64,000 bases of DNA from Candidatus Thorarchaeota archaeon (GCA_029855935.1 JAGSHN010000031.1:32001-96000); one strand, 5' to 3'. Shown: positions 1 through 17,820, numbered from the stretch's first letter. Notes: generated by a model from the letters alone, not told the origin. Program-made: numbers and translations.

Positions 1-513
1 AACAGAACGACCTCTTATGTGGTCCACGCCTACGTTCAGGAATATCAGCAGCTGGGGACTCAGACCGAACTCGTCCTCCCCTCACAGGGAGCCTTCACTC
101 TATACTTTCCTGAGGGCGGAGGCTCGCCGGACATCCCTGAGAACACCTTTGTGGACCCTGATGCCCTCGGCCAGTACGCTGTGGTCGAGATTCAGTTTGA
201 GACCTCGGACTTTGGGCCGGTCGGATCCCTGTGGTGGTGGACGGATGCCCACGTGCATTATGTCATTGCGCTCGACGTTGTCGTGATAGGGCAGTGGATA
301 TGGCCACTGGACGAGGCACTGGGTGGCGAGAACAGGGCTGGTGGCGGGACGAAAGTGTCGCCCTGGGACGCCGCAGCACGGGCGCTGGGCGATGCATTCT
401 CAGCGCTCGGCGACTGGCTGAACCAGTTCTGGTGGGTCATCCCCATCGTGATCATCAGCGTTGCCACCCTTGTGCTTCTTGTCCTGTTGAGAGGAATCGT
501 GCCGAGGAGGTAA
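1..513 (+). CDS. Putative virion membrane protein, 5'-truncated by window, C-terminal TM anchor
   Basis: Frame open from base 1; ends in FWWVIPIVIISVATLVLLVLL-RGIVPRR. Confidence 0.7.
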   Translation, partial: NRTTSYVVHAYVQEYQQLGTQTELVLPSQGAFTLYFPEGGGSPDIPENTFVDPDALGQYAVVEIQFETSDFGPVGSLWWWTDAHVHYVIALDVVVIGQWIWPLDEALGGENRAGGGTKVSPWDAAARALGDAFSALGDWLNQFWWVIPIVIISVATLVLLVLLRGIVPRR

Positions 514-520
514 TAGCATC

Positions 521-721
521 GTGGAGTGGGGGCTGGTCTTTATCGTGCTGGCAGCAGCAATAGGAGTGGCAGGCTCGCTACTAGTTGAGGATATGCTGGT
601 GGCGGTCTATCACCACTGGGTCAAGAAACGCCAGCAGGAGAAGATCCCAGTACGTCGCTGGGTCGTCAGGGACTATGGCGACAGGATGGTCATTCTATGC
701 AGGGGGTGGAAGAGGGAGTGA
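521..721 (+). CDS. Small single-TM viral protein
   Basis: Hydrophobic N-terminus then basic tail; stop overlaps next start. Confidence 0.6.
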   Translation: MEWGLVFIVLAAAIGVAGSLLVEDMLVAVYHHWVKKRQQEKIPVRRWVVRDYGDRMVILCRGWKRE

Positions 722-3700
722 GAGGTCGCGCTGTGGTCCTGCTCTTTGTACTGATGATTATGCTACCAGCCCTCGGGCCGATGGTGCCCTCACTGGTTGT
801 TCCCCCCTCCCACCAGACTACTTCTGGCCCGAGGGCTGACCCCTCACAGAACTTCAGCACGAGCGCGGACGGGGACGTGTCGCCCGACTCCATCACCAGT
901 TTCAGCGAGACTCTCCCGGATGATGTCATGTTCTATCCCGATAACGAGTCCTATGGGAGCGGGTACGTCGAATCGTTCGCCGACGTCACTGACTGGTACA
1001 CAAATGCTTGGGAGAGCGAAGACTCCTACTCAACGGATGGAGATATTCTGTCGCTGGAGTCGTACGGAAACGCGAACAATGACGTTGACAAACTCTTGAG
1101 CGACTCAATCTCAATCTCAATGTACAACTACTTTGAATTCAGATACCGAATGAATGTGAGTACTGGGGGCGCAGATGGTGTCTGGATTGCCTTCTACGAT
1201 GCGGCAGGCGCCTTGATTCGCTACTGGTCCACGGATTCATTGACGGCCAATAAGTGGGTCACGGTGAAGCGTTGGATACCCACGTTGTCTGCGGGCAGCA
1301 GTTCGTCAACGACCATTGAGAAGGTGGGGCTCTATACGAGAACGGATGTCGGAGAGCACGCGAGGCTTGACGTTGACTACGTGCGTGTTGCCTCTGGTGA
1401 TCAAATGGGCTGGCAATATGACGGTTCTACTCTCTGTGGTGTAGAACCCGCGTCGTTGGCGAACTGGCAATCTACTACTGAGATATTAAGTGGGGACCAG
1501 TTTCGGGTCACAGCGAAGAAGATTGCCGCAGGTAACTCCTATTTCTACGTCAAGTTCTACACAGACACGACAAGCACGATTGCTGAGGTCGATGAGGACT
1601 ACTATCCCTTTTTCAAGATTAGATGGGCTGGCGATAATCTCAATGACACTAGCTGCTGGATGTATCTGTATGTGTACGGACAGGACAAGAACCCCACGTG
1701 GACGGAAATGATGACCGCGGGGCTGGTCCATAGTGTCGACTTCAATGAGACCGTTGTCATGAATGTCGACGCAATCGCAAGCGAGCCCAACTCTCGTGAC
1801 TACATCGCAACAATCTATGTATACCTTGATGATAATCGCATCAATTCAGTCGTACAGATTACTGTAGACTACATGAAGATGTACTCCATTGCGGAGTTCT
1901 CCATCTCGCAGAACTACGTTGAGGTCGATGATATTGCGTATGTACAGAACGGTCTGCTGTACACGGAGCTGGACGGGTATCCTGAATCAATCATATTCAA
2001 CCACGACCCAGCAGTTTCAATATCCCCGACTTATAACGTTGTGAACTTGACGCTTGCCGACTCCGACCCGACGAGCAGTCCCTACGACTACGGGGTAAGG
2101 GTCTATCAGACCACTTCTACGTACTTGACAAAGTACGAGGAAACGAGATTCGATTGGACGAGTTCACTGACAGAGGTGACCGATTTCTTCATAGAGTCCT
2201 ACTATACGAACATCATCAGCGCAATCAAGTTCTGGCAGGACTCCGCTGCGCCGGAGATAATAGCTGTATGGAACACGCCCTCCGAGCCAGACAATGCCAC
2301 AAGTGTTCGGTTCTCCGTGACAGCCTATGATCTGATGGGAGTCTACTCGGTCTCGCTAGTGTCCCTGATGCAGCCGGCCGGATCCTCCATCTCCGCCATA
2401 ACTCTATCGCGCTATGCTCTGGGCGCAGGATCTGAGCTCTGGACCGCGAACGAAACACTGTCGGTGCCGGGCGAGTACGTGTTCGAGGTCCGCGTCTCGG
2501 ACGGAGCGAATGTCGCCTACGAGACACTCTCTCTGGTGGTGGACCAGTACGAACCCGCTACGCTCGTGGTCAGCGACAGCGTCTTCTCGTACAACAACGA
2601 GACCAACGTCCTATCGGGTGATGTGTCCATTCCCTGCTCCTATTCTGTGTACGAGAACGACAGCCTTACGGCGTCCGGATCGCTGTCCGCAGGCTCCTAC
2701 AGCATCGAGTGGCCTCACTCGACCACCCCTGGTAATTACTTCTGGGCTGTCAAGTTTGAAAATGGAGGCCACACGATGTGGAGGAATGGGACGTACCACA
2801 TCGATGGCCAGATTCATGACGGTGATCTGTACTACGCTCTCCTATACTCCTACCCTCTGGAGGTGACCGACATGTCACACTTCTGCGCCAGACCAGAATA
2901 CAGCGGGTACATGTTCTTCCTGCTATGGGGCGACCTCGACAACGTCACCACTTCCATCACAATGGAGCCCTATGTGTACGAAGGAGCCATGACCGGATTC
3001 TACTGCGAGGTCTACGGAGTCTGGTCGCTCCTCATCCCAATTGACGATGCCACGATACATCAGTTTGCGAGTTCTAACGTTGGAAACGTGTTCAGTAATT
3101 TCACTATGAAGTACAACGGTCGAGTCGTGACACCTGCAATAACGACCTTCGGCGGGGGATGGGATCACTACACGTACGAATTTTTCAACACCGGAAGCGG
3201 ACAGACTGGAGTCATCTATCTCAGTGACTACTTTCTTGCACCAAAGACGTTTCAGTACTTTGTCCTCGATAATGGAACCTTCGTGGACTCGAACACTATA
3301 GACTATGACATCGCGGTGTATCATAATTATGAACTATCTCCGTACATAGGTGGCTGGGGGCGCTTCCTGTTCCGCGTTCGCGTCAACAACCAATTTGCGG
3401 GCTGGGGTGTAGGAGTCACTTGGACGGATCAGGACTACAACGACGGACGTCAGTATCTGGAGGTCGACCTCTACGGCCTCAACACCGATTTTCTCGACAC
3501 TACCTGTTCCATCCAACTCGATCTTGTCTGGGGGATAGCATTCCTGGCAAACGAGACCTTCTCCTTCGATGAAGACGGGATAGCGACGGCACTCACCTCT
3601 CTCTACACCCAACCGCTTCTCTACGTTCCCGGAAGGCTCCAGATTGAGAACCGGCTTGCACTTGTGGCGGAGCGGTACGTCACCTTCTCCGGCACGACGA

Positions 3701-4146
3701 ACCTCCCCTGTAATGTCACGGTTACGGAGAACGGCACCGTCGTTGCGACTGCTGAGATCTCGCAGGCGGGAGAGTTCTCCCTGCTGTGGAATAGAAGTGT
3801 CGGGAACGGCGACATCATCGCAACCCTTCACTTCTACACCTCGACCAGTGACGTCTACATCAACGTCACCTATGCCATGCTCCGCGAGATTGAGTACGTG
3901 GACTACGACCAGATCTGGAAGATAGTCCAGAGCGAGGCGGACAGGATAATACGACAGAGTCCAGCGGGAGCCAGCCCAGAGGCTGTGCAGAATATAGTCT
4001 CCAATGCAGTCGTGCCAATCTGGGCATTCATAGTTGTCTTCGGCGTGTTCGGTCTTCTCCTCCTGTGGAGGTTCACGGACTCGATTGCGGAACGGGTCGC
4101 CAAGATGATGAGAAGGAGCGCGGGACTCAGGAGGTCGAGAGGATGA
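718..4146 (+). CDS. Large surface spike/adhesin-like glycoprotein (~1140 aa)
   Basis: N-terminal signal/TM, beta-rich Y/T/S/D modules, many N-x-S/T sequons, C-terminal TM; GTG start at 718 after GGGA. Confidence 0.8.
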   Translation: MRGRAVVLLFVLMIMLPALGPMVPSLVVPPSHQTTSGPRADPSQNFSTSADGDVSPDSITSFSETLPDDVMFYPDNESYGSGYVESFADVTDWYTNAWESEDSYSTDGDILSLESYGNANNDVDKLLSDSISISMYNYFEFRYRMNVSTGGADGVWIAFYDAAGALIRYWSTDSLTANKWVTVKRWIPTLSAGSSSSTTIEKVGLYTRTDVGEHARLDVDYVRVASGDQMGWQYDGSTLCGVEPASLANWQSTTEILSGDQFRVTAKKIAAGNSYFYVKFYTDTTSTIAEVDEDYYPFFKIRWAGDNLNDTSCWMYLYVYGQDKNPTWTEMMTAGLVHSVDFNETVVMNVDAIASEPNSRDYIATIYVYLDDNRINSVVQITVDYMKMYSIAEFSISQNYVEVDDIAYVQNGLLYTELDGYPESIIFNHDPAVSISPTYNVVNLTLADSDPTSSPYDYGVRVYQTTSTYLTKYEETRFDWTSSLTEVTDFFIESYYTNIISAIKFWQDSAAPEIIAVWNTPSEPDNATSVRFSVTAYDLMGVYSVSLVSLMQPAGSSISAITLSRYALGAGSELWTANETLSVPGEYVFEVRVSDGANVAYETLSLVVDQYEPATLVVSDSVFSYNNETNVLSGDVSIPCSYSVYENDSLTASGSLSAGSYSIEWPHSTTPGNYFWAVKFENGGHTMWRNGTYHIDGQIHDGDLYYALLYSYPLEVTDMSHFCARPEYSGYMFFLLWGDLDNVTTSITMEPYVYEGAMTGFYCEVYGVWSLLIPIDDATIHQFASSNVGNVFSNFTMKYNGRVVTPAITTFGGGWDHYTYEFFNTGSGQTGVIYLSDYFLAPKTFQYFVLDNGTFVDSNTIDYDIAVYHNYELSPYIGGWGRFLFRVRVNNQFAGWGVGVTWTDQDYNDGRQYLEVDLYGLNTDFLDTTCSIQLDLVWGIAFLANETFSFDEDGIATALTSLYTQPLLYVPGRLQIENRLALVAERYVTFSGTTNLPCNVTVTENGTVVATAEISQAGEFSLLWNRSVGNGDIIATLHFYTSTSDVYINVTYAMLREIEYVDYDQIWKIVQSEADRIIRQSPAGASPEAVQNIVSNAVVPIWAFIVVFGVFGLLLLWRFTDSIAERVAKMMRRSAGLRRSRG

Positions 4147-4355
4147 GAGTGAAGGAGACCATAGCGCGAAAGTCAACCTACACGATGATCTTGGCAGTGA
4201 GTTTCTTCATTGCTGTGCTATTGTTCAGCGACTGGTTCGGCGTGACATTCGTGGGCGGGATAGGTGAGCTCTTCCGGCTGTTTCTGCTGTTCCTGCTGCT
4301 CACCAGCCTGTCCAGCGTTCTCACGTGGGCGATGTTCAGGGGGTCGACTGAGTGA
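4143..4355 (+). CDS. 70-aa two-helix hydrophobic protein (candidate capsid/matrix protein)
   Basis: ATG overlaps upstream TGA; two hydrophobic helices joined by a Gly-rich turn. Confidence 0.6.
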   Translation: MRVKETIARKSTYTMILAVSFFIAVLLFSDWFGVTFVGGIGELFRLFLLFLLLTSLSSVLTWAMFRGSTE

Positions 4356-4696
4356 TGCTAGTCCTCCTCGTTCTCAGTCCGTTCATTCCGTTGTTCGCCC
4401 TCATGGTACACGAGGGCGCCCACGCATTGATGGCCCGCTGTAGACGGGTCCACTACGTATGGTTCTGGGACGGCAGGCACATAGGTCTGGACCTCGACGA
4501 GCACGCTCCAAGGACAGCGCTGAGGTCAATTGCAGCAGCGGGACCCATTGCCGAGCTAGTGGCGCTACTCTGTTGGCTAGTAGTTCTTGTCGTCCAAGAA
4601 GTGATCATCTGGCCCATGTTCATCCCTCAGATTGCCTATGCCATCTGGTATGGGAACGAAGAGATTAGACGTGTAGAAGCGGAGGTTGAAGAATGA
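4352..4696 (+). CDS. Minimal M50/site-2-protease-like Zn metallopeptidase
   Basis: HEGAH in a hydrophobic helix plus IAAAGP motif. Confidence 0.65.
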   Translation: MMLVLLVLSPFIPLFALMVHEGAHALMARCRRVHYVWFWDGRHIGLDLDEHAPRTALRSIAAAGPIAELVALLCWLVVLVVQEVIIWPMFIPQIAYAIWYGNEEIRRVEAEVEE

Positions 4697-4724
4697 ATCA
4701 GGCACTCAAGCTGAACCTGTTCAT
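4688..4724 (+). repeat. 37-bp exact direct repeat, copy 1
   Basis: GAAGAATGAATCAGGCACTCAAGCTGAACCTGTTCAT, identical at 9577..9613. Confidence 0.95.
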
Positions 4725-5712
4725 AGTGTTCTTGGAGGTCGCGGTGGTGGTCGGACCTCTGCTGCTAATCAGACAAGCGGAGGCGGTCGGTGCTGCGAAC
4801 CCCTTCACGAACACGACGATATTTATCGCAGTTGCTGCCGTCGTGGCCTTCGTGGGCCAGCAGATCGTGAAGTACAGCGTGGAGAGGGAGCTCGGTGCAA
4901 ACCGCGTTCTCGACCTCGTCGTGCGCGGGAAGGGTGCCAGGGCCGAGGAGAAGAACGAGGTAGAGCACAGATACATAGTCTCCGAGACCTACCCTCTGTA
5001 CGACTCATCGCTGGACGACCTGCTGAAAGGCGAGCAGGCGCAGATCTACGCGACCGTGCGCGAGTACTGGGACCGCGTCACCAGTCGTGAGCGTGAGGGA
5101 AACACGCACATCGAGTTGGTGAACACAGATGAGGGCTGGAAGCTCTTCCTCATGCCAGCCCCCTTCGAGGTCACGTTCTCATTCTCGGAGCGCTTCATCG
5201 AGGGTGGCCTCTGGGGCAAGAAGATGCTCGCGAGCTCCGGCTCCGCACTGAGCCTTGGTGAGATGTCGCAGCAGGTGGAGTTCGACACGCGCAAGATAGA
5301 GAACTGTGAGGTGCTCATCATAGTCGATTCCAACTATCTTGCGGCGGCGCTTGAGGCGAGAATCTTACTCGACCCGGATTTGAACATCGACGAGATTGCG
5401 CAGGCCATCCAGCGCCACGTCCAGTTTCAAAATGTGCAGCTCGCTATGGACCTCACGGCGGCAACAGAAGAGAACAAGGTCCTCTGGGAGAAGTATCTGG
5501 CTCAGGATTACGACGTCGACCGACGTGCAGCCAAGAAAGCGAGATTGATGACCGTGAAGTATCTGGAGGGCGAGGAGGATGCGATCCCGAAGGAGTCCCG
5601 CGTCAGCCTGTCGTCACTGAAGTGGTGGCACTGGCTTCTGGTGATCCTGCTCATCGTCGGAGGAGTACTACTATTGCGGATGTTGCTGGTACCAGCGCCT
5701 GCAGGAGGATGA
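4693..5712 (+). CDS. Viral membrane protein (2 N-terminal TM, coiled coil, C-terminal TM); long paralogue of 9582..10181
   Basis: Hydropathy; colinear similarity to 9582..10181. Confidence 0.75.
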   Translation: MNQALKLNLFIVFLEVAVVVGPLLLIRQAEAVGAANPFTNTTIFIAVAAVVAFVGQQIVKYSVERELGANRVLDLVVRGKGARAEEKNEVEHRYIVSETYPLYDSSLDDLLKGEQAQIYATVREYWDRVTSREREGNTHIELVNTDEGWKLFLMPAPFEVTFSFSERFIEGGLWGKKMLASSGSALSLGEMSQQVEFDTRKIENCEVLIIVDSNYLAAALEARILLDPDLNIDEIAQAIQRHVQFQNVQLAMDLTAATEENKVLWEKYLAQDYDVDRRAAKKARLMTVKYLEGEEDAIPKESRVSLSSLKWWHWLLVILLIVGGVLLLRMLLVPAPAGG

Positions 5713-5715: not shown

Positions 5716-6192
5716 ATGGCATCTAGAATGAGGGAGATCCGCGAGTGGATAGAGTTCGCAGAGGACCGCGCGGCTGCAAAAGAAGAAGCGAAGAAGGCCG
5801 CAAGCGCAGATATAGACCCCAAGAAACATGGCCTGTTCGCGGGGAGCCGGCCGAAGTCAAGGCTGGTCCGTGGTATCAACAGGCTCCGGCTTGTGCAGTC
5901 GTTCTCAGAGATTGGCAAGGACAAGATTGTGGAGGACGAGCAGCTCCTGCCGAGGCTTCTCGCAGAGAATCTCGAGCAGAATCTCGACTACTATGTCCTG
6001 CTACCGCGCCCCGCGCTGGTCGAGGCGCGTGAGCACGGTCAGGAAGTCGTCCCTATCAGTCCTGCGGAGCTCGACGAGGAGACGCGGAGATTGCTGGAGA
6101 TGACCGAGATCCCTGCTCAGGAGCAGGGTAACGAAGAGTCTAAGAGTGAAGATGAGCATGTAGAGGGTGATAGGAACGATGAGAATGAATGA
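5716..6192 (+). CDS. Hypothetical viral protein with acidic C-terminus
   Basis: GGAGG RBS, operon position. Confidence 0.7.
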   Translation: MASRMREIREWIEFAEDRAAAKEEAKKAASADIDPKKHGLFAGSRPKSRLVRGINRLRLVQSFSEIGKDKIVEDEQLLPRLLAENLEQNLDYYVLLPRPALVEAREHGQEVVPISPAELDEETRRLLEMTEIPAQEQGNEESKSEDEHVEGDRNDENE

Positions 6193-6451
6193 AGAGAAGC
6201 TGGGACTGACCGCGAACATCATTCAGGTCTTTGGACTCGGGCTGGCATTGATGGTGGCCTTCCAACTGATGAACATCGTGGACCAAATGCTCTACTGGCT
6301 GTCAGTGACTGCACTCGCGAGTGCCTTTCTCGCTGGCGTCGTCTTATCCAACAGAGAGTCAAAGCTCACTCATGCCCTCTGGCTGATGGCTCTGTCATTC
6401 ACTCTCATTGTCGTTGGCTATGCCATAGTCGTCATTGGGGTGAGAACATGA
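6185..6451 (+). CDS. Three-TM viral membrane protein
   Basis: Hydropathy; overlapping gene junctions. Confidence 0.7.
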   Translation: MNEEKLGLTANIIQVFGLGLALMVAFQLMNIVDQMLYWLSVTALASAFLAGVVLSNRESKLTHALWLMALSFTLIVVGYAIVVIGVRT

Positions 6452-6633
6452 AGAGGCAGACTCTGGAGGATATTCAACTTGTGATGTTGGGAGCCGGCGT
6501 GTTTGTTCTCATGTACCTCATTGGGAAAATGGTGGCTAACACGGACATTCTGGCCCCCGGTAACGAGTTCTATCTGATAGCTGTGTTGATAGGTGCTGCA
6601 GCACCATTCTATGTCCTTCTATTCGACAGATGA
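6448..6633 (+). CDS. Two-TM small viral protein
   Basis: Hydropathy; ATGA overlap. Confidence 0.65.
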   Translation: MKRQTLEDIQLVMLGAGVFVLMYLIGKMVANTDILAPGNEFYLIAVLIGAAAPFYVLLFDR

Positions 6634-6646: not shown

Positions 6647-8365
6647 ATGACCGCGACCACTGCCAGCGAGAGCCACTTCGACATCCCTCCGGGCGGGGAC
6701 AGACCACCGGAGCCAATACGTAGGGACCGCTACGGCAGGTGGCTCGCATACTTTCCCAGCAGAGGCTGGTACCCTGCAGTGCCGGTGCCCACACTCAAAC
6801 GATGGGACAAAACAGAACTGGACTGGCGTCTCGATGCAAGGATCTGGTGGGCGACAGACACCGTCCGCGAGAGCTGGAAGAACCGGGCCGAGGAGGACCC
6901 ACGCCTCTTCCGTGCACTTACGACAGACGGCACACTGACCTTTCTCCGCACTATTCAGCAGCTCGCGTTCCGCTTCGAGGGGCATGAGGGCGGGAATGCA
7001 GTCATTGCCATCAGAGGGCCGCGTCGAAGCGGAAAGTCGTTCCTGGCATTCTCCATTACCGGCCTGTGGACCCGAATGATGCGCTCGCAGGCACATATCA
7101 CGTTCTCCGCAGGTCTGACCAGTACCTTGGCCAAGTCCTCCGATGGCGATATCATCGTGGTAGATGAGAACAGTGCGCTCTCCGGTGGAGAGAGTTCCAC
7201 GTTCTACAAGCAACGTAAGAATCTGATAGACCAGACCGGCGTGAAGAAGATCGCACTGGTGCTCATTGGCCCGGACATCGACTTCAAGGCCTTCGGTCGC
7301 GCCCTCGACCTCGGCATCGAATGGTGGGGTGCCTGGCAGAGCAAGAACGCCACCCGCTTTGTCGTGTTCGACCATGCCGAGCGACCTCTCTATGTCGCAG
7401 GTCTCCAGCGGACGTTCCTGTGGACTCAGGAGCCATTCGCCTCCTATCTTGTCCAGAAGCATGCGATGTTGGATGAACTCATAGAGGCTGGAGGCGTAGA
7501 CACAGCAGCCACAGCCTATGATGAAATGTGGGATGAATACTACTCAGTGCTGATGCAGGAGATACGGGAACGATACCCGCATCACGTCCCATCGGTGCGC
7601 ACTATCCGAAGTATTGCAGTACGAGACCTCAAGCTGAGGTTTCCAACAATCAGCTTTCGTGACGACCTCTGTACGCTAGTTCGCGACGATCTCAAGGCCA
7701 GCATGGAGGTACAGAGTGATAATAATTCATCACTCCCAGTGGTGTCTACGACGACATCAGAGGGGTGGGAGACCTTCCGCGAGGGGATGTACCGACTGGG
7801 GTTCGAGTACGGCGGCGGGAAGAAGCACAGAGAGCGAGATGCGTGGGCGCTCGCCTGGTGGTACGTGCCAGAGACCACGGAGCACTGGACCTACAAGGAA
7901 GTGGCCCGAAAGGTGAACTTTGACGGAAATCCCGACTCGCTCGGCAAGCAGATAAACCGGCTGTTCGGTCGAATCCCCACGAAGGCCGTTGGAGACCTTG
8001 GCGAGATTTGCCTCGCGTCGTGGTTAGATTCTCTCCGCCCGCGCCGCGCACCGAGCACCGGACGTGGCACGCCCGACCTGCTGGTGGACGTGGAGGGTCA
8101 GGAGGTCGCGATCAACGTCAAGACCTCGCTCGAGGACAACTACCGCGAACACATACCCACCACACCAGAGTACCACTGGCGGCCCAACGCCCTGATCGCA
8201 CTGGTCCTGCCCAGACTCCTCGAGATACGACTCTTCCCCATCACACAACCCAAACAGTCCATCAACCGCAACAACGGAGTCCTGACAACGCCGGAGAGGG
8301 TTTCTAACCACGTCAGAGAGATGGTCCTCCGTCAGCAGACAGAGGGCGGAGGCGGCGGCGTCTGA
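6647..8365 (+). CDS. P-loop ATPase (morphogenesis/packaging-like) fused to HTH and C-terminal PD-(D/E)xK-like nuclease
   Basis: Walker A GPRRSGKS, Walker B IIVVDE; C-terminal GDLGE...PDLLV...INVK. Confidence 0.75.
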   Translation: MTATTASESHFDIPPGGDRPPEPIRRDRYGRWLAYFPSRGWYPAVPVPTLKRWDKTELDWRLDARIWWATDTVRESWKNRAEEDPRLFRALTTDGTLTFLRTIQQLAFRFEGHEGGNAVIAIRGPRRSGKSFLAFSITGLWTRMMRSQAHITFSAGLTSTLAKSSDGDIIVVDENSALSGGESSTFYKQRKNLIDQTGVKKIALVLIGPDIDFKAFGRALDLGIEWWGAWQSKNATRFVVFDHAERPLYVAGLQRTFLWTQEPFASYLVQKHAMLDELIEAGGVDTAATAYDEMWDEYYSVLMQEIRERYPHHVPSVRTIRSIAVRDLKLRFPTISFRDDLCTLVRDDLKASMEVQSDNNSSLPVVSTTTSEGWETFREGMYRLGFEYGGGKKHRERDAWALAWWYVPETTEHWTYKEVARKVNFDGNPDSLGKQINRLFGRIPTKAVGDLGEICLASWLDSLRPRRAPSTGRGTPDLLVDVEGQEVAINVKTSLEDNYREHIPTTPEYHWRPNALIALVLPRLLEIRLFPITQPKQSINRNNGVLTTPERVSNHVREMVLRQQTEGGGGGV

Positions 8366-9250: not shown

Positions 9251-9293
9251 TGTCTATCGTCATTCAACAACCGACATGATTTAGTTATCCGTT

Positions 9294-9374
9294 TCCTGTC
9301 GTATACCGAATAGCAATATCCTTAATAGGCAGTTGTGGTCATTATAGGATGTCGACATTCGATATGCGACAGGA
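9294..9374. promoter_or_regulatory. Symmetric bidirectional promoter with two 18-bp operators
   Basis: 9294..9311 and 9357..9374 are inverted repeats (16/18); back-to-back TATA-like boxes TATTAAGGAT (minus) and ATTATAGGAT (plus). Confidence 0.7.
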
Positions 9375-9381
9375 GGTAGAA

Positions 9382-9585
9382 ATGAAACACAAGCGTTGGT
9401 ACATGACGGAGGCGACGTGGCGGCGCTTCTCGCGTTTTCGCAAGGAGCTGGAGCTGCGTCTAAACAGAGATCTGAGCCAGGACGAGTTCGTGAGAGTCCT
9501 GTGTGATCACAAGGACGTCGTTCTGGACGTGCTACTGAACACCGCCTCGGCGGACTGTGCTTCTCGAGGAGGGACCGAAGAATGA
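9382..9585 (+). CDS. Ribbon-helix-helix-like regulator (Cro-like position)
   Basis: KHKRWYMTEATWRRF...LSQDEFVRVL; AGGAGG RBS. Confidence 0.65.
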   Translation: MKHKRWYMTEATWRRFSRFRKELELRLNRDLSQDEFVRVLCDHKDVVLDVLLNTASADCASRGGTEE

Positions 9586-9613
9586 ATCAGGCACTCAAGC
9601 TGAACCTGTTCAT
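9577..9613 (+). repeat. 37-bp exact direct repeat, copy 2
   Basis: Identical to 4688..4724. Confidence 0.95.
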
Positions 9614-10950: not shown

Positions 10951-11315
10951 CGTGGAATGGCGATAACACAGTGACGTTTGAAGGCTCTCGTGAGACCTCC
11001 ACGGCCATTGTTGAAGCCCTTGATTTTGCCCGCAGGCTCTTTGCGGGGCTGGACAGGCTGGGTGAGCGGCAGAGGGACGCGGACGAGGCGAGATATGTGC
11101 GTTCAGAGGAATCGGGTGTGTCTCCTTCCTTCACGCTTGATCCCGCCGAGACTCGCCTAGGGAACTGCCCTCTGTGCGGGGGCGTACTGGAGCGGAAGAG
11201 TACGAGCTCAAGGATAGGCCCGCCGGGTATGATTCAGAGCGAGGAGATCCACACGACTGTCTACTGCCCCCATTGCGGCTACGAGCAGGTCTCATTCGAG
11301 GAGGTGCCTCTGTGA
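10941..11315 (+). CDS. Zn-ribbon protein
   Basis: CPLCG...CPHCG. Confidence 0.7.
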   Translation: MRVTWNGDNTVTFEGSRETSTAIVEALDFARRLFAGLDRLGERQRDADEARYVRSEESGVSPSFTLDPAETRLGNCPLCGGVLERKSTSSRIGPPGMIQSEEIHTTVYCPHCGYEQVSFEEVPL

Positions 11316-12046
11316 CTGCGAACAGAATTCGCATCAAGAAGTCGGTGGGACCATTCTGGAGGTGGACCATCAATTTCATGGTCGGATGTGACCAATGTCT
11401 TTACTGTTACAACAAACGGTGGAATTGGGCCCGCGGGTCACCACGAATCAAAACGGACCTGTCGCTCCTAAGGAAACAAGCAGAGTCCTTCGAATGGAGC
11501 CCAGGACCGTCGGCAATGTGCACAACGCTCTATGACGTGCTCACGTCCAGCAGTCATGACCCATTCCACGTCTCATCACTATCCACAGCGGTAGAGATTC
11601 TCCGGCTACTGGCGAATACCCCTGTGGCGAGTCATCTACGGGTTCTCACAAAGATGGCACTGTTCAATCCTCCACGGTGCGGGGGGCTTTGGGGCATGAC
11701 AATCACAACACTAAATGGTGCAGTGGCTCGGCTGCTGGAACCTCTTGCATCGCCCCCACACGAGCGTTTCAACGCTCTTCAGAACTGGGCCCAGCGAGGG
11801 CACAAGCTGTGGCTCTCCGTCGAGCCTATGCTGGAGGGAATGCATCTTCATGACCTCATTTGGTCCTTGGAACGGCTCGGTGTTCATCCCCAAGAGGTCT
11901 GGGCCGGACGACTAAATCATCGTCATCTATCGACAAAGGCAGCAGAGTACGCTCTCGATGATGCTGAGATAGTGAGGCAGTTCGAAGAGGCGAGAGACTC
12001 CTTTCCAGAGATACGGTGGTATCTGAAGAGGGAGGTGAGGGCGTGA
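11312..12046 (+). CDS. Radical-SAM-like protein (SPL/DUF5131-like)
   Basis: INFMVGCDQCLYCY; ITTL...LLEPLASPPHERF; WLSVEPM. Confidence 0.7.
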   Translation: MTANRIRIKKSVGPFWRWTINFMVGCDQCLYCYNKRWNWARGSPRIKTDLSLLRKQAESFEWSPGPSAMCTTLYDVLTSSSHDPFHVSSLSTAVEILRLLANTPVASHLRVLTKMALFNPPRCGGLWGMTITTLNGAVARLLEPLASPPHERFNALQNWAQRGHKLWLSVEPMLEGMHLHDLIWSLERLGVHPQEVWAGRLNHRHLSTKAAEYALDDAEIVRQFEEARDSFPEIRWYLKREVRA

Positions 12047-12492
12047 GCGTCGACACGATTTCCGCATCCACATCGATCACCGAGAGCTACGTCGCGACGG
12101 CGACCGTCTACACATCCTACTATGCCAGATTGATGAGAAACGTGGATGAACGACCCGATTTGACGCACGTGGCGGTCAGTCGCTACTGGCCTCGGTGGAT
12201 GAAGAAACCTGAGGGCGTGCTGTGGCTTCCAAATCTAGGGCCTAGCAAGCAGCTGCTCTTCACTGCAAAGAAACTGAGCATGGACTTCGAGGAGTACGGT
12301 CACCGATATCTTCACGAGATCCTTGACACACGGGACGGCCGGGAGGCGCTGAACAGGCTGTTGGCACTCCTCGAAGATGGAGAAGATGTCGTGCTGTACT
12401 GCTACGAGAAAGATGTCCGATGTTGCCACCGCTTCTGGCTCTCGGCACTTCTCTGTCACGCGTACGGCTTTGGCCAGGGGGGAGAGCTGTGA
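12043..12492 (+). CDS. DUF488-family protein
   Basis: YTSYY, SRYWPRW, LGPSKQL, VVLYCYEKD..CHR. Confidence 0.8.
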   Translation: MSVDTISASTSITESYVATATVYTSYYARLMRNVDERPDLTHVAVSRYWPRWMKKPEGVLWLPNLGPSKQLLFTAKKLSMDFEEYGHRYLHEILDTRDGREALNRLLALLEDGEDVVLYCYEKDVRCCHRFWLSALLCHAYGFGQGGEL

Positions 12493-12756: not shown

Positions 12757-14577
12757 GTGACCATGACCGAGGCACATGTCAGTGACTGGACGGTGACGGA
12801 CGAAGAGCTGCTCTCGCTCATCCAACGCTACGAGCAAGAGTTCGGGGAGTGGAATCCAGAACACTTCTTTGAGATATTCTTTCATGTCCTTCGGCCCTCT
12901 TCTCCCCGGCAGGTGCACATCGAATACGTGAATGAGTTGCGAGAGCGCGGAGCAAATAGCTGTATATTGCTCCCTTCTTGGCGGACTCCCCAGAAGGTAC
13001 ACGTCATAGCATCGTATCTTCTACGCAAACATCGCTTCTATGCTCAGTCCAAGAATAGCCCGATATGGATGTATCACGAGGACGAAGGGATCTGGCGGCC
13101 GGATGGTGAGGAATTCATTCAACGGTTCGTGAGAGAGATTCTCGGCGAGGATTTCAGAACGCACGTAGTCAACGAGGTCGTCAATTCTATCCGATATGCA
13201 TCCTACAATCCAAGCGTGGAGTTAGGCGGGCCGCCACACAAGATCGTGGTCAATAATGGCCTTCTGAATATTGAAACGCGAGAACTTGAGGGCTTCGCCG
13301 CGGACGAATACCACATTGTCCGCCTTCCGGTGGACTATGACCCAGATGCAGACTGCCCTCGTTTTAGGAAGTTCTTGGACGAGATTCTGGACTCTGAAGA
13401 TGACAAGAAGGCCATCATCGAGCATCTCGGCTCTTGTCTACATCGTGTCCCGTATTCGAATATCGTGTTGCTTCTCGGCGAGGGGTCCAACGGTAAGAGC
13501 GTTCTGCTCAATGTTGTCAAGACCTTTCTCGGTGCGGAGAACGTCAGCGCCATTCAGCTGCAGAGGCTTGAGGAGCGCTTTCAGACCGCCAAGCTGCACG
13601 GCAAGCTCGCCAACATCTGCGCGGACCTGCCAGCTAACCCCATCCGATACACCGGCATGATAAAGATGTTGACGGGGGGAGATATCATCACCGCGGAGCG
13701 CAAGAACAGAGACCCATTTGAGTTTGTCAATCACGCCAAGCTGTGGTTTAGTGCAAACGAAGTACCGCCGTCTTGGGACGGCACGGACGCATTTCATAGA
13801 AGAATGCGAATCATAGAGTTCAGGCGCCAATTCTTGGATGACGATCCGAACACCATCCCGCAGGACATCCTGGTGCCTCAGCTGACAACAGAGGAAGAGC
13901 TATCAGGAATACTCAACCTCGCTCTGGATGGGCTGGCGAGACTACGACACCAGGGCCACCTCTCGGGAACCCCAGGTGTCGAGGCGGCTCGGCGGCAGTA
14001 CATCAAGCGCAGCGACCCAATCCAGTACTTTGCCATGTACTTCTTGGAACAGGACCCCACTGCGCCGAGCGTGCCGAAGCAAGAGATGTACGATATGTAT
14101 GTCAAACTGTGCCGCGCGCTTGGCAAGATCCCGAAGTCCGACGGGTGGTTCGGTAAGAGGCTGAAGATGCTTCTGCCATACATCTCTGAATCACAGCCCC
14201 GCGAGGAGGGTTCCCGCATTCGTGTGTGGGATGGTGTGCGCATCCGATACGACCTGCTACAGAAGGAGGGGGTAGAGGTGCCCTCTGGCACAGGTGGAAC
14301 AGGTTCCCTACTTATTTCGTCGTCTAAAGTGATTGACTCTATGGAGAGAAGTAGGGAAACAACCCGTTCCACCCGTGCCACCCGTTCCACAATACTGAGG
14401 GCCCTGAGTGGACATGATCTGACGGAGGGCGCGTTGTGGGACGCTCTTGGCTGCAGTTCAGAGGAGGAGCGGAGGAGGGTGTCGGAGGCCCTGCAGGAGC
14501 TCGTGCGAGAGGGCAGGGTGATGGCGCGTGGCGACACTCCCGTGTACTACCGCGCCGTAAGAGGTGATGCACGATGA
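12757..14577 (+). CDS. D5/P4-like superfamily-3 helicase with C-terminal wHTH; no recognisable primase domain
   Basis: NNGLLN, YDPDADCPRF, GEGSNGKS, KMLTGGD.I.AERK, FSANE.P, RRMRII.F. Confidence 0.9.
   Translation: MTMTEAHVSDWTVTDEELLSLIQRYEQEFGEWNPEHFFEIFFHVLRPSSPRQVHIEYVNELRERGANSCILLPSWRTPQKVHVIASYLLRKHRFYAQSKNSPIWMYHEDEGIWRPDGEEFIQRFVREILGEDFRTHVVNEVVNSIRYASYNPSVELGGPPHKIVVNNGLLNIETRELEGFAADEYHIVRLPVDYDPDADCPRFRKFLDEILDSEDDKKAIIEHLGSCLHRVPYSNIVLLLGEGSNGKSVLLNVVKTFLGAENVSAIQLQRLEERFQTAKLHGKLANICADLPANPIRYTGMIKMLTGGDIITAERKNRDPFEFVNHAKLWFSANEVPPSWDGTDAFHRRMRIIEFRRQFLDDDPNTIPQDILVPQLTTEEELSGILNLALDGLARLRHQGHLSGTPGVEAARRQYIKRSDPIQYFAMYFLEQDPTAPSVPKQEMYDMYVKLCRALGKIPKSDGWFGKRLKMLLPYISESQPREEGSRIRVWDGVRIRYDLLQKEGVEVPSGTGGTGSLLISSSKVIDSMERSRETTRSTRATRSTILRALSGHDLTEGALWDALGCSSEEERRRVSEALQELVREGRVMARGDTPVYYRAVRGDAR
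14286..14390. repeat. Iteron/palindrome array, candidate replication origin inside the helicase gene
   Basis: 2x TGG(C/A)ACAGG, TTCCCTACTT...AAGTAGGGAA, 3x inverted CCCGT(T/G)CCA. Confidence 0.7.
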
Positions 14578-15116: not shown

Positions 15117-15401
15117 GTGATGATAATGTCGGTTAAGAGAAGATTCTGGCGCGGCTACTGGGTAAGATTGGTGGTCCTGTCGGCGATAGCGATGATTGGC
15201 ATGCTGTTCTTCGCGTTGTTCACAATCGACACCTTTGTGAGCGTGCATGTCAATGTGCCATTGCCAGTCAGAACTGTGGGATTCCTCATCTGTGCGGTGG
15301 TAGCCTCGTGGTTCTTCCTGATTGCATTGTATAAGAACACTCTGTGGGCCATACGTGTACGCAGGAAGATGCGCGCGGTCGAAGGAGGCGATGAGGAGTG
15401 A
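15117..15401 (+). CDS. Two-TM viral protein
   Basis: Hydropathy; GGAGGTG RBS. Confidence 0.65.
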   Translation: MMIMSVKRRFWRGYWVRLVVLSAIAMIGMLFFALFTIDTFVSVHVNVPLPVRTVGFLICAVVASWFFLIALYKNTLWAIRVRRKMRAVEGGDEE

Positions 15402-15592
15402 CTGAGGAGACCAGCCAGGGCCGCCGGCTTGCAGCCATCACAGTGTTGCTGATGTCGATGATCACGCTACTCGGTGATGGTTTCCTGTTGGTGGCGATGG
15501 GGCAGTATCCTCTCCTCTTTGCGAACGTTGTCTATGTGAGCTACGTCCTGATTGCGGTCTACGTATATCTCTGGGAGAGTGATGTGGAGTGA
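15398..15592 (+). CDS. Two-TM viral protein
   Basis: Hydropathy; GTGA overlaps. Confidence 0.6.
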   Translation: MTEETSQGRRLAAITVLLMSMITLLGDGFLLVAMGQYPLLFANVVYVSYVLIAVYVYLWESDVE

Positions 15593-16059
15593 CGTGCCTG
15601 AGATGCGGCCGGGATGCCGTCGACTACTACGTGGACAATGGCATTCAGCGCCATGACGACTGGGCGTGCGCCATCTTGGGCATCGGAGGGGCGCCGTACT
15701 GCTGGAAGTGTCGGCATGAGTACTACTTCTCCGAGCAGCACTGCGACTACGTTGCGATCTTTGAGTTTCGTAACATCTTCGGCGCCAGGTATCGTACTGA
15801 CGTCCTCTTCTGGAAAGGCATGAGAGAGCTCGATGCTGCACTGGAGAGGATGCGTCTGGTTGGCGAGTACCTGCATCGTGCGTCTGGTCGGCAGGCACGA
15901 TACCTCGGTGTGTCTGCGGGTCAGAGAGGGGGCGTGTCATTCATTTTCGGCACGGAGAACAGTCTGGACTTTCTGCGAGAGCGGATAATGTGGGTCCGAA
16001 GAATGATGGCGGTGCCGGTTCAAGGGACGCTGGAGGAGTTTCTGGAGGTGGAGGTGTGA
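15589..16059 (+). CDS. Zn-binding hypothetical viral protein
   Basis: CLRC...CWKC. Confidence 0.65.
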   Translation: MTCLRCGRDAVDYYVDNGIQRHDDWACAILGIGGAPYCWKCRHEYYFSEQHCDYVAIFEFRNIFGARYRTDVLFWKGMRELDAALERMRLVGEYLHRASGRQARYLGVSAGQRGGVSFIFGTENSLDFLRERIMWVRRMMAVPVQGTLEEFLEVEV

Positions 16060-16649
16060 GACTTCGCGTTCTGGACCTGTTCTCGGGTCTCGGAGGTTTC
16101 TCGGAGGCGTTTCTGCGGCGGGGGCATGAGGTGTTCCGAGTGGACAACGACGTCCGTTTCGCGCAGGTCCCGTGTACTATCATAGGGGACGTGCGGGAGA
16201 TTGACATTGAGCAGTTCGTACCGATTGATGTTGTCTTGGCGAGTCCACCGTGCGAGACATTCACACGGCGTCATCTGCCCTGGCTGGATGCACGTGATGG
16301 CGAGATAGAGGAGGCAATGCTGCTTGTGGAGGCTGCAGTGATGATCATCGACGATTTGGAGCCACAGTTCTGGGTATTGGAGAATGTGCAGGGTGCCGTA
16401 CCGCACATATCCAGACTGCTGGGCCCGCCCAGACAACGTATCGGCTCGCGCTACCTGTGGGGTGTCTTCCCGCGGATACATCTCACTCCGCAGGAGGAGC
16501 GCGAGTGCTACGGAAAGTACCGCCTTCCGCCCAGCGTTCCGAACCGGGCTGCGGAGCGCGCCAGGATTCCGTATGTGCTGAGCTTGGCACTCTGCCGGGC
16601 CATGGAGGAACAACAGACACTGCTGGAGGTGCTGGAGGATGAGCGCTGA
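16056..16649 (+). CDS. Short DNA cytosine-5 methyltransferase
   Basis: Motif I LDLFSGLGG, motif IV SPPC, motif VI ENV. Confidence 0.85.
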   Translation: MRLRVLDLFSGLGGFSEAFLRRGHEVFRVDNDVRFAQVPCTIIGDVREIDIEQFVPIDVVLASPPCETFTRRHLPWLDARDGEIEEAMLLVEAAVMIIDDLEPQFWVLENVQGAVPHISRLLGPPRQRIGSRYLWGVFPRIHLTPQEERECYGKYRLPPSVPNRAAERARIPYVLSLALCRAMEEQQTLLEVLEDER

Positions 16650-17734
16650 GGCTGCTGAGCCGGGAGATCTGTGGGCGCTGGTACGGGAGTTGGTGGAGAA
16701 GGCAAAGGAGGAACTGAGGACTGAGAGAGAGCGACAGGAGCAGGTTCCTGAGCGAGTTCGAGCGGAAACTTGAACTGGAGGGTCTTCGGCCCAGAAGCAT
16801 CAGGAACTACATGTACTGGGCTGGCCGACTGTACCCTCTGACCCGTCCCCGTCTCGAGGAGCTGCTATTGCAAGCGAGAAGCGCAAGCACTTACAACCTC
16901 GTCTTGCAGACAGCGAGAAAGATGGTCACATTGATGGGGATCTCTGTGAGTCTGGAGGGACTGCGGTTTCGCCGCGTGGAGAATCGCGTGCGGCATCATG
17001 AGGACCTTCTGACCGTCGACGAGGTTCGTGCAGTCATCCGTGAGGCTCGGACAACGGCAGCAGCCAGTGCGATTGCAGTGTGCTGGGATGGCGCCCTCAG
17101 AGTCGGCGAGCTACTCTCATTCGAGATGCGCGACATCCGACAGGACGAGTACGGCTACGTGATCATCGTGCGCGGTAAGACCGGCGAGAGGCCTGTGCGT
17201 CTCGTCCGCAGCTGCGGACATCTCTCTGCATGGCTCAGGCATCGCGGTGAGGAACCCGGACGGGTCTTTCCATTCACAGCAGACTGGCTCCGCGGACATC
17301 TGCGTCGTGCTGCCCGTAGGGCCGGCATAAGGAAGAGAGTCTACCCGCATCTACTGAGACATTCAAGACTGACAGAACTGGCCAAGAGCCTGCCTCGACA
17401 GGCACTTGTGGCATTTGCGGGTTGGAACGCCGAGACGGATATGGACAGTGTGTACGTTCATCTCAGCCAGCAGGATGTGGACTCGGCCGTGTTGCGGGCG
17501 GCTGGTGTTCCGGTGGGCAGTAGCGAGTCCTCTGTGCAGCGTTGCCCGCGCTGTCATCTTCTCACGGACGGCGGAGACTTTTGCAGCAATTGTGGGGCGG
17601 TGCTGCAGGTCACTGCTGATGATCTACAGAGGCTGACTCTTGAGCAGATGATGTTCCGGGCGTTGCAGATGCCTGAGGTCCAGCGCGCGATGATTGATGC
17701 ATTCAAGCGCATTATAGATGAACAGAAGGAGTAG
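16639..17734 (+). CDS. int: Tyrosine integrase with C-terminal Zn ribbon; N-terminus split by a frameshift near 16723-16741
   Basis: GALRVGEL, RGKTG, HLLRH, AGW, VYVHL catalytic set; CPRC..CSNC; core-binding-like FLSEFERKLELEGLRPRSIRNY lies upstream of the first in-frame ATG (16811). Confidence 0.9.
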
Positions 17735-17820
17735 TTAGAAAGGTGTTATGTGACATAGTAAGACCAAGGGTCAGGTACCTTTATGAGAGCCGTCACGGCA
17801 GCCACACGGGAGCGATGCTG

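What the first reader, a model, noticed from the sequence alone, without database searches (positions are those of the whole stretch)
1..17760. Integrated, probably membrane-extruded virus in an Asgard genome with an unusual gene set
Seen: spike/adhesin, at least 9 TM proteins, ATPase-nuclease, mini-protease, genetic switch, D5-like helicase, C5 MTase and integrase; no recognisable terminase, portal, HK97 or DJR capsid in the visible part. Known: pleolipoviruses and spindle-shaped archaeal viruses use a block of spike/adhesin, small membrane proteins and an NTPase. Inference: a temperate enveloped or spindle-shaped virus, possibly a new family, in a host that encodes ESCRT-III.
Basis: partly seen in the sequence, partly recalled or inferred. 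Interest (0 to 1): 0.85.

Follow-up and report, generated by a model that had tools for sequence, protein, structure and literature searches.

The report
Integrated virus-like element in Thorarchaeota
A 20.6-kb mobile element sits in the chromosome of a hydrothermal-vent Thorarchaeota (Asgard) archaeon and belongs to a rare, apparently undescribed Asgard-wide group that is probably a membrane-type virus with no classical capsid, although no virus particle has been shown.

Summary
Two genomes of the same genus have the flanking genes about 125 bp apart. Here 20,597 bp lie between them, flanked by a 9-bp direct repeat (AAAGGTGTT). The element runs from 2,858 bp left of the window to position 17,747.

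The missing left part encodes only three membrane-anchored beta-rich proteins. It has no head-tail genes and no conjugation genes.

The host is a Thorarchaeota archaeon with two Snf7 (ESCRT-III) genes.

One module is shared: anchored Ig-like proteins, a giant anchored glycoprotein, 4-6 small membrane proteins, then a P-loop ATPase–helical linker–Hjc-like nuclease. It recurs in another Thorarchaeota genus, in three other Asgard families, and on an 18.2-kb contig with a 115-bp terminal overlap (probably circular) that has no integrase or helicase.

The ATPase family (229 representatives) resembles the His1 ORF16 ATPase and Zot-like viral ATPases. It does not resemble the pleolipovirus VP8.

No capsid protein was identified. 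I found no CRISPR spacer match and no sign of excision. As assembled, the integrase lacks an in-frame start for its N-terminal domain.

Verdict: certainly a mobile element, probably (about 55%) a temperate membrane-type virus of a new family.

This scan has noted the same kind of element before on other Thorarchaeota DNA.

The parts
1..513 (+). C-terminal 170 codons of a membrane-anchored protein. The ORF starts at contig C27 31239; the likely true start is the MKRQRRR signal at about C27 31533. It has an N-terminal signal or TM segment and a C-terminal TM anchor. Upstream of the window, still inside the element, lie a 323-aa gene (window -2725..-1754) and a 184-aa gene (-1704..-1150). Both have an N-terminal TM helix and a beta-rich domain. 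The attL core lies at -2858..-2850.
   Evidence: ORFs, hydropathy; homologue on the circular relative (E 1.7e-5; the 184-aa protein E 1.7e-14); the 184-aa model is a TM helix plus an Ig-like beta-sandwich.
521..721 (+). 66-aa protein with one N-terminal TM segment, overlapping the start of the spike gene. A 67-aa one-TM counterpart sits at the same place on the circular relative.
697..4146 (+). 1149-aa surface glycoprotein (spike or adhesin candidate): signal or TM segment at 12-30, TM anchor at about 1100-1126, 19 N-x-S/T sites.
   Evidence: Homologues on G324 (28% over 538 aa), on the circular contig (29% over 655 aa, E 1e-47) and on L137. The G324 copy links it to giant anchored proteins in three other Asgard families. 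Only a weak Big_6 Pfam match.
4143..4355 (+). 70-aa protein with two TM helices directly after the spike gene. By size and topology alone it is a candidate major particle protein.
   Evidence: G324 has an 87-aa two-TM protein in the same position. No similarity to His1 VP21.
4352..4696 (+). 114-aa membrane protein with HEGAH (HExxH) in its first TM helix; possible small intramembrane metalloprotease.
   Evidence: Motif seen. No family match. G324 has a 131-aa protein with HELGH.
4693..5712 (+). 339-aa protein with N-terminal TM helices and a C-terminal TM anchor. It is a paralogue of 9582-10181 and a homologue of the G324 280-aa protein.
   Evidence: 42% identity over 190 aa to the paralogue; E 2e-6 to G324.
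5716..6192 (+). 158-aa acidic soluble protein, no family match.
6167..6633 (+). Two small membrane proteins: 94 aa with three TM segments and 61 aa with two TM segments. They lie just upstream of the ATPase gene.
   Evidence: No similarity to His1 VP21.
6647..8365 (+). It has no TM segment.
8963..9250 (-). 94-aa winged-helix regulator, repressor-like.
   Evidence: HxlR/PadR weak matches. PHROG transcriptional regulator 1.5e-6. 61% identical on G324. Its DNA is conserved in G386, G392 and G321.
9251..9381 (.). Divergent control region with an imperfect inverted repeat (CCTGTCGTATACCG ... CGATATGCGACAGG) and two opposed TATA-like boxes.
   Evidence: Read directly. One palindrome found.
9382..9585 (+). 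67-aa small basic protein, first gene of the rightward operon.
   Evidence: 51% identical on G324.
9582..10181 (+). 199-aa truncated paralogue of the 339-aa membrane protein. Its first 16 residues are identical.
   Evidence: Contigs of the source run break at both copies.
11174..12492 (+). 290-aa protein with a CxxCxxC motif (weak radical-SAM PA0069 and phrog_13321 matches), followed by a 158-aa DUF488-N3a protein. Possibly a DNA modification or repair pair.
12757..14577 (+). 606-aa D5/P4-type superfamily-3 helicase (D5_N, DUF5906, Pox_D5 C-terminal region, C-terminal wHTH). No primase domain was recognised.
   Evidence: TIGR01613 199 bits, cut-off 108.7.
15117..15592 (+). Two small membrane proteins (94 and 64 aa) in the right-hand operon.
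15990..16649 (+). 219-aa C5 cytosine methyltransferase-like protein. Only the N-terminal third of the family profile is matched.
   Evidence: PF00145 4e-12, profile 2-117 of 324..
16639..17734 (+). Tyrosine integrase with a C-terminal zinc ribbon. The reading frame opens at 16718 and already encodes core-binding-type sequence there. The first in-frame start is at 16811. An ATG at 16639 lies in another frame, across a GAGAGAGAG tract (16723-16731).
   Evidence: The Logan contig of the source run has the same letters.
17739..17747 (.). attR core AAAGGTGTT, 4 bp after the integrase stop codon. The identical attL core lies at window -2858..-2850.
   Evidence: The empty sites in G312 and G313 read AAAGGTCTTGTT at the matching place.

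Best explanation
This is a 20.6-kb temperate mobile element of a Thorarchaeota archaeon. A tyrosine integrase inserted it into the promoter region between a host membrane/HhH gene and the UDP-GlcNAc 2-epimerase gene.

Its left 11 kb is one co-oriented operon. I read that operon as a particle-building module. It encodes membrane-anchored Ig-like proteins, a 1149-aa glycosylated spike or adhesin, six small mostly membrane proteins, and a soluble ATPase–helical linker–Hjc-like nuclease.

Proposed mechanism (inferred):
1. The structural proteins are inserted into the host membrane.
2. The ATPase-nuclease binds the replicated circular genome, resolves or cuts replication intermediates, and drives the DNA into a membrane-derived particle, either spindle-shaped or pleomorphic.
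3. The particle leaves without lysis, as in spindle-shaped archaeal viruses and filamentous phages.

The right 9 kb holds a divergent wHTH switch, an SF3 helicase for replication, DNA-modification genes and the integrase.

Shown here: insertion, boundaries, gene content, the fold of the ATPase-nuclease, and conservation of the module across Asgard lineages and on a probably circular replicon.

Inferred, not shown: that a particle is made, what shape it has, and what the ATPase-nuclease does.
For: - Empty site in G312 and G313, and a 9-bp direct repeat.
- Patchy spread: 0 of 4 same-genus genomes and 13 of 400 genomes of the phylum.
- The module is syntenic in G324 (same family), in G016, G294 and G142 (other Asgard families), in L137, and on an 18,223-bp contig with a 115-bp terminal overlap that has no integrase or helicase. 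So the morphogenesis-type module is conserved while the replication modules differ.
- ATPase family: 229 representatives with an invariant P-loop and E-D-K triad. hhalign to His1 ORF16 gives 92.5%, E 4.7e-7, over 238 columns. The best of 159 host Walker-A proteins gives 87.9% over 96 columns or fewer.
- The order adhesin, block of small genes, then a TM-less pI-like ATPase matches the published description of wyrdviruses (bioRxiv 10.1101/2021.07.29.453957).
- No head-tail, double-jelly-roll or T4SS families were found.
Against: - No protein could be tied to any known capsid or virion protein. The small two-TM proteins show no similarity to His1 VP21. The spike, 184-aa and 323-aa profiles match nothing in His1, SSV1 or HRPV-1.
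- The His1 ORF16 score is only slightly above generic AAA+ scores (54.6 against 53.4). SSV1 B251 matches only at the P-loop.
- None of the host's 217 CRISPR spacers matches the element or its relatives, and no spacer-like match was found in 400 Asgard genomes.
- No relative was found in IMG/VR or in the phage records.
- As assembled, the integrase lacks an in-frame start for its N-terminal domain, so this copy may be unable to excise.
Confidence: 0.55

Rival explanations
1. It is an integrative plasmid or a small conjugative-type element, not a virus. The giant adhesin would make cell-to-cell contact. The membrane proteins would form a channel. The ATPase-nuclease would nick or resolve the DNA and pump it into a recipient cell. 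No free particle would be made.
For: - No capsid protein was identified.
- There is no CRISPR or virome signal.
- An ATPase with a DNA-binding region and a nuclease suits DNA processing for transfer.
- Similar Asgard elements with many TM proteins have been read as possible conjugative or secretion-like systems (PMC11529989).
Against: - No VirB4/TrbE, VirD4/TraG or HerA-type family was found by Pfam, PHROGs or NCBIfam.
- The ATPase has no TM segment.
- Its nearest sequence and structure neighbours are viral: His1 ORF16, inovirus Zot, and viral Atlas clusters.
- At 18-25 kb with about 35 mostly tiny genes, it looks like small archaeal viruses.
Confidence: 0.27
2. It is a grounded remnant. The element was once mobile (virus or plasmid) but can no longer excise, because its integrase has lost its start or suffered a frameshift. 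The surface module would now serve the host.
For: - The N-terminal domain of the integrase lies upstream of the first in-frame start, across a (GA)n tract.
- The methyltransferase is only partial.
- Depth in the source run is the same on the element and on its flank, and the contig bridges attR.
- GC content equals that of the host.
Against: - All long ORFs of the module are intact.
- The element is absent from all four same-genus genomes, so the insertion is recent on that scale.
- A single-base error, or slippage at the GA tract, would restore a full integrase.
- Contigs cannot show rare excised forms.
Confidence: 0.12
3. It is an ordinary host cell-surface gene island that happens to lie next to an unrelated integrase and helicase.
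For: Most products are secreted or membrane proteins with no family match.
Against: - The whole 20.6 kb, surface genes included, is missing as one block at the empty site.
- The same surface genes travel with the ATPase on a probably circular 18-kb contig and in other families.
Confidence: 0.02

Closest known systems
Wyrdviruses (Asgard spindle-shaped viruses; Medvedeva et al., bioRxiv 10.1101/2021.07.29.453957)
   Same: - Asgard hosts and genomes of 15-26 kb.
- As described in the paper, the morphogenetic module has an adhesin, a block of about five unassignable genes and a TM-less ATPase that resembles filamentous-phage pI/Zot.
- Replication modules vary between relatives.
- Here the order is the same, and the ATPase has Zot-like structural neighbours.
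   Different: - No His1-type capsid protein could be identified.
- The ATPase here carries an added helical region and an Hjc-like nuclease.
- The host is Thorarchaeia, the GC content is 56%, and the element is integrated.
- I had no wyrdvirus sequences, so direct homology is untested.
His1 virus (Halspiviridae)
   Same: - The ATPase family profile aligns with His1 ORF16 (putative ATPase with a C-terminal HTH) at 92.5% over 238 columns.
- His1 also has signal-plus-anchor structural proteins and many small TM proteins.
   Different: - There is no match to VP21, ORF26 or ORF27.
- His1 is linear with a protein-primed polymerase. This element has an SF3 helicase and an integrase.
- The ATPase margin over generic AAA+ proteins is small.
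Pleolipoviridae (HRPV-1)
   Same: Same general layout: a spike with a C-terminal anchor, small membrane proteins, then an NTPase. There is no capsid. Replication modules vary between relatives.
   Different: - VP8 is not related to this ATPase beyond the P-loop (0.7%).
- VP3 and VP4 give no match.
- The spike here is twice as long.
- The hosts are haloarchaea.
Filamentous-phage pI/Zot assembly ATPases (Tubulavirales)
   Same: The P-loop domain has Zot-annotated proteins among its nearest predicted-structure neighbours (BFVD rank 2, TM 0.52 by target; Atlas rows 4, 5 and 9). The gene sits at the end of a membrane-protein operon.
   Different: - No Pfam Zot match in any of 36 members.
- No TM segment.
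- A nuclease is fused to it.
- The solved-structure ranking is generic RecA-like.
24.7-kb integrated Thorarchaeota element noted earlier in this scan (e1-5445800, e1-5445796)
   Same: It has the same kind of module and the same conclusion was reached (capsid-less, probably membrane-coated virus; Asgard-wide rare family). The G324 element I found independently spans about 24.7 kb and shares the spike, the ATPase, the wHTH gene, the small switch gene and an integrase.
   Different: - It lies in a different genus and at a different site; that element is said to sit in a small RNA gene, this one in a promoter region.
- Only 27-61% protein identity.

Membership tests
Tyrosine-recombinase integrative elements | Tyrosine integrase at one end, direct repeats at both ends, empty site in relatives | tested here: met
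   PF00589 at 42.3 bits against a cut-off of 27.1. A 9-bp repeat 20,597 bp apart, with the attR core 4 bp after the integrase stop. Empty site in G312 and G313. Caveat: no in-frame start for the N-terminal domain of the integrase.
Spindle-shaped archaeal viruses (Halspiviridae, Fuselloviridae, wyrdviruses) | His1 VP21 / SSV1 VP1-type major capsid protein (about 80 aa, two hydrophobic segments) | tested here: inconclusive
   Proteins of 70 and 61 aa with two TM segments exist in the module. They show no sequence signal to VP21 (hhalign 0.2% or less) and no PHROG or Pfam match. Single-sequence tests on such short hydrophobic proteins are weak.
Spindle-shaped archaeal viruses (Halspiviridae, Fuselloviridae, wyrdviruses) | TM-less morphogenesis ATPase related to His1 ORF16 or to pI/Zot | tested here: met
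   hhalign to His1 ORF16 92.5%, E 4.7e-7, 238 columns. No TM segment. Zot-like structural neighbours. The margin over host AAA+ proteins is small (87.9%). SSV1 B251 matches only at the P-loop.
Wyrdviruses | Sequence homology of the adhesin and the five-gene block to wyrdvirus proteins | not testable with these tools
   No wyrdvirus sequence was at hand. The phage-record and IMG/VR searches gave no match. Only the published gene order could be compared.
Pleolipoviridae | VP8-type NTPase and VP3/VP4-type membrane and spike proteins | tested here: not met
   VP8 0.7%. The spike, 184-aa and 323-aa profiles match no HRPV-1 protein.
Caudoviricetes | HK97-fold capsid protein, portal, large terminase | tested here: not met
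   No such Pfam or PHROG family in any ORF of the element, the upstream 2.9 kb included. The nuclease of the ATPase is Hjc-like, not RNase H-like.
Varidnaviria (double-jelly-roll viruses such as skuldviruses and FylV1) | Jelly-roll capsid protein and FtsK/HerA packaging ATPase | tested here: inconclusive
   No family match (the same calls as for Caudoviricetes). The one structural protein I folded is an Ig-like sandwich on a TM helix. The ATPase is not specifically FtsK/HerA-like. The 323-aa and 326-aa proteins were not folded.
Conjugative elements (archaeal pNOB8-type, T4SS) | VirB4/TrbE and VirD4/TraG ATPases | tested here: not met

The most novel reading that the evidence does not exclude
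These elements are a new, Asgard-wide family of capsid-less viruses built in the membrane. Their genome-loading motor would be a Zot/His1-type ATPase fused to a Holliday-junction-resolvase-type nuclease. That would make it a functional counterpart of a terminase, built from different parts, which cuts or resolves the replicated circle while feeding it into a budding or extruding particle. The family would extend the spindle or pleomorphic virus world to Thorarchaeia and other Asgard classes, in both temperate and episomal forms.
Probability: 0.4. Interest if true: 0.8.

Novelty: new variant of a known kind. Interest (0 to 1): 0.62.

Why it matters
- Few Asgard viruses are known. For Thorarchaeia, only head-tailed ones came up in the papers I read (PMC13700489).
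- An integrated element with exact ends, an empty site in relatives and a probably circular cousin gives a concrete handle on a rare Asgard mobile-element family.
- The ATPase–nuclease fusion (229 representatives, no family name) is a testable candidate for a new way of loading DNA into membrane-derived particles.
- Hosts with ESCRT-III make the exit route a question worth asking, although nothing here bears on it yet.
- The integrase, its 9-bp site and the small replicon could also be of use for future genetic tools in Asgard cultures.

Tried and rejected
- tRNA target: ARAGORN calls a tRNA-Ser at 17586-17673, inside the integrase gene. Its anticodon position is odd and Rfam finds no tRNA. 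I treat it as a false call.
- No exact repeat of 13 bp or more between the two ends. The 9-bp core emerged only after aligning with the empty sites.
- Close relatives of the ATPase: none in IMG/VR, none in the GTDB contig scan with a single protein, none in the phage records. The spike also has none in the phage records.
- The word-indexed search found only two ATPase relatives and none for the 184-aa protein.
- CRISPR: 217 spacers from six arrays of the host hit neither the element nor its relatives. The element's DNA against 400 Asgard genomes gave no spacer-like full-identity hit.
- Source run X1 (hydrothermal vent metagenome, Logan contigs only): a contig bridges attR. Depth is 18-27 on the element and 27 on the flank. 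No loose end was listed at the att core. Contigs cannot show rare excised forms, so this says nothing either way.
- Small TM proteins against His1 VP21, and the spike, 184-aa and 323-aa profiles against all larger His1, SSV1 and HRPV-1 proteins: no signal. One such script timed out.
- Protein-atlas feature searches for the spike, the 184-aa and the 323-aa proteins scored 0.83 or less and gave only generic Ig/PKD leads.
- PDB sequence search with the ATPase alone found nothing. The profile gave only P-loop matches and a marginal Hjc match.
- Pfam on ten proteins of the circular relative found no replication protein.
- I did not use complex prediction, because no specific binding claim is made.

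Full report
**Where it lies**

The window is G000:C27:32001-96000 of a 2.97-Mb, 32-contig genome, so 32 kb of contig lie to its left. I read that part.

Left of the element are ordinary host genes: glutamate dehydrogenase, dCTP deaminase, a PRPP-synthetase-like gene and a purine-nucleoside-phosphorylase-type gene. Next comes a 259-aa four-TM/HhH protein on the minus strand. Right of the integrase lies UDP-GlcNAc 2-epimerase.

**Host**

- The best matches of the epimerase are Candidatus Thorarchaeota / Promethearchaeota MAGs at 65-75% identity.
- One of them, QMYR01000011.1, has the same length (25,013 bp) as contig C11 of the same-genus genome G312.
- The genome has two Snf7 genes above Pfam's cut-off. 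One of them is in this window, at C27 58172-58660.
- The source run is a hydrothermal vent metagenome.

'Asgard genome with ESCRT-III' is therefore correct.

**Insertion and boundaries**

In the same-genus genomes G312 and G313 the four-TM/HhH gene and the epimerase gene are neighbours, with about 125 bp between them. In G000, homology stops at C27 29107 and resumes at C27 49820.

Aligning the junctions with the empty sites shows a 9-bp direct repeat, AAAGGTGTT. It lies at C27 29142-29150 (window -2858..-2850) and at 49739-49747 (window 17739-17747). The empty sites read AAAGGTCTTGTT just after a TATA-like TCTTAAAGG.

- The element is 20,597 bp long. Its right repeat starts 4 bp after the integrase stop codon.
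- A 9-mer shared by two 230-bp stretches is expected about 0.2 times by chance. Its position at the exact break of homology is what makes it credible.
- ARAGORN's tRNA-Ser inside the integrase gene is not supported by Rfam.
Each has an N-terminal TM helix and a beta-rich body (323 aa, 184 aa, and the 424/326-aa protein that runs into the window). None matches a head-tail or conjugation family.

**Gene content**

Pfam, PHROGs and NCBIfam recognise these:
- the SF3 helicase (D5_N, DUF5906, TIGR01613);
- DUF488-N3a;
- a partial C5 methyltransferase;
- a wHTH regulator;
- the integrase;
- and, weakly, a radical-SAM-like protein.

The whole left operon has no family match, and eleven ORFs inside the window have TM segments.

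The 1149-aa protein has a signal, a C-terminal anchor and 19 sequons.

The integrase frame is open from 16718 and already encodes core-binding-type sequence there. That sequence is similar to the N-terminus of the G324 integrase. The first in-frame start, however, is at 16811, and an ATG at 16639 lies in another frame across a GA repeat. The Logan contig of the source run has the same letters. This may be a real frameshift, slippage, or a shared sequencing error.

**The ATPase-nuclease**

An exhaustive profile search found 229 representatives at 50% clustering, 23 of them below 1e-30. Most are 480-660 aa long.

In 36 aligned members the invariant residues are G129, K130, D173, E174, E453, D477 and K492.

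The AF2 model has pLDDT 84.5.
- The N-terminal domain is a RecA/ASCE-type P-loop fold. Many matches are tied: phi8 P4 at 9.4, RecA at 8.4.
- Among predicted viral structures, an inovirus Zot protein is second.
- The nearest ESM-Atlas clusters are mostly viral, and several carry Zot or AAA annotations.

The family profile gave these hhalign results against known viral ATPases:

| Target | Result |
|---|---|
| His1 ORF16 | 92.5%, E 4.7e-7, 238 columns |
| HRPV-1 VP8 | 0.7% |
| SSV1 B251 | 23%, P-loop only |

As a control, I compared the profile with all 159 Walker-A ORFs of the host. Apart from the protein itself, the best reached 87.9% over at most 96 columns. The His1 link is therefore the best match, but not by a wide margin.

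**Relatives**

| Relative | What it shares |
|---|---|
| G324 (same family, other genus) | A syntenic element of about 24.7 kb: spike (28%), the 339-aa homologue, ATPase (27%), wHTH (61%), the small switch gene (51%) and an integrase |
| G016, G294, G142 (three other Asgard families) | The ATPase sits downstream of 1117-1822-aa anchored proteins that share a region with the G324 spike, plus several TM proteins |
| L137 (8.9-kb contig) | Partial spike and ATPase |
| JBQSKB010000160.1 (18,223 bp, GC 56%) | See below |

The family is patchy: 13 of 400 genomes of the phylum and 0 of 4 of the same genus.

JBQSKB010000160.1 carries homologues of the 184-aa protein (E 1.7e-14), the 424-aa protein, the spike (E 1e-47) and the ATPase (E 5e-50). 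They are in the same circular order. The contig also holds 22 small genes on the other strand. It has no integrase, no SF3 helicase and no host gene, and its ends overlap by 115 identical bases. That is what a circular replicon looks like after assembly.

The module therefore travels on different backbones. Pleolipoviruses and wyrdviruses show the same pattern.

**Other structural proteins**

The 184-aa protein folds (pLDDT 78.7, alignment of two sequences) as a TM helix followed by an Ig-like beta-sandwich.
- The nearest Atlas clusters are DUF5305 proteins (TM 0.65-0.67).

This fits a membrane-anchored surface protein and is not a known capsid fold.

No profile of the spike, the 184-aa or the 323-aa families matches His1, SSV1 or HRPV-1 proteins. 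None of the small TM proteins resembles VP21.

**Activity**

The host's spacers do not hit the element, and 400 Asgard genomes hold no spacer-like match. The source-run contigs show the integrated form at host-like depth. None of this can rule out a rare excised form.

**Literature**

| Paper | What it describes |
|---|---|
| 10.1101/2021.07.29.453957 | Wyrdviruses have the order adhesin, five genes, then a TM-less pI-like ATPase |
| 10.64898/2026.08.12.739948 | NMV3, a spindle-shaped virus with a His1-like capsid protein |
| 10.64898/2026.02.13.705702 | FylV1, a double-jelly-roll provirus |
| PMC13700489 | For Thorarchaeia, only head-tailed viruses |

I found no description of this ATPase-nuclease family or of this element group.

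Earlier notes of this scan describe a 24.7-kb Thorarchaeota element and reach the same reading.

**Verdict**

The element is certainly mobile in origin, and its boundaries are defined to the base.

The virus reading is the best one, at about 55%. A small integrative plasmid or transfer element is the main rival.

If it is a virus, it is closer in its ATPase and in its layout to spindle-shaped viruses (wyrdviruses, His1) than to pleolipoviruses. It would still form a separate group, marked by the fused Hjc-like nuclease.

Noticed in passing
G000 contig C28:228472-228705 (locus L012 14946-15170); CRISPR array at C28 231.6-233.5 kb: A fragment encoding residues 1-78 of the ATPase (50% identity) with two stop codons. 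It lies about 3 kb from a 25-repeat CRISPR array at the contig end. No other gene of the element was found nearby. It is probably the remnant of a second, related element.
   Followed up: partly
window 8254-8343: The 3' end of the ATPase gene is 86% identical over 90 bp to G322:C174:8719-8804. Contigs of the source run break at 8261-8290, so this short stretch seems to be repeated or shared between elements. Its role is unknown.
   Followed up: no
window 4693-4730 and 9582-9619: The 339-aa membrane protein and its 199-aa paralogue begin with the same 16 residues. The independent contigs of the source run break at both places, as expected for an exact repeat. Recombination between the two copies would delete the ATPase and the switch.
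   Followed up: partly
window 996-1301: Two low-depth (2.5-3x against 25x) 151-bp contigs of the source run differ from the spike gene at 12-14 positions. A rarer allele or a second strain of the spike seems to be present in the same sample.
   Followed up: no
window 11174-12492: A 290-aa protein with a CxxCxxC motif (weak match to PA0069-type radical SAM proteins and to phrog_13321) overlaps a DUF488-N3a gene. This may be a DNA repair or modification pair carried by the element.
   Followed up: partly
window 15990-16649: The C5 methyltransferase-like protein has 219 aa and covers only profile positions 2-117 of 324. It is either a truncated gene or a split or minimal form.
   Followed up: no
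whole genome G000 (contigs C14, C17, C21): ARAGORN in bacterial mode finds only 29 tRNA genes, and 19 of them sit on two contigs of lower GC (C14 and C17, 53.7% against about 56%). This could reflect intron-containing tRNAs that were missed, or some heterogeneity in the bin.
   Followed up: no
G000 contigs C18, C20, C24, C28, C29: Six CRISPR arrays of two repeat types (31 nt and 37 nt) hold 217 spacers.
   Followed up: partly
window 26172-26660 (minus strand): One of the host's two Snf7 (ESCRT-III) genes lies 8.4 kb to the right of the element.
   Followed up: no
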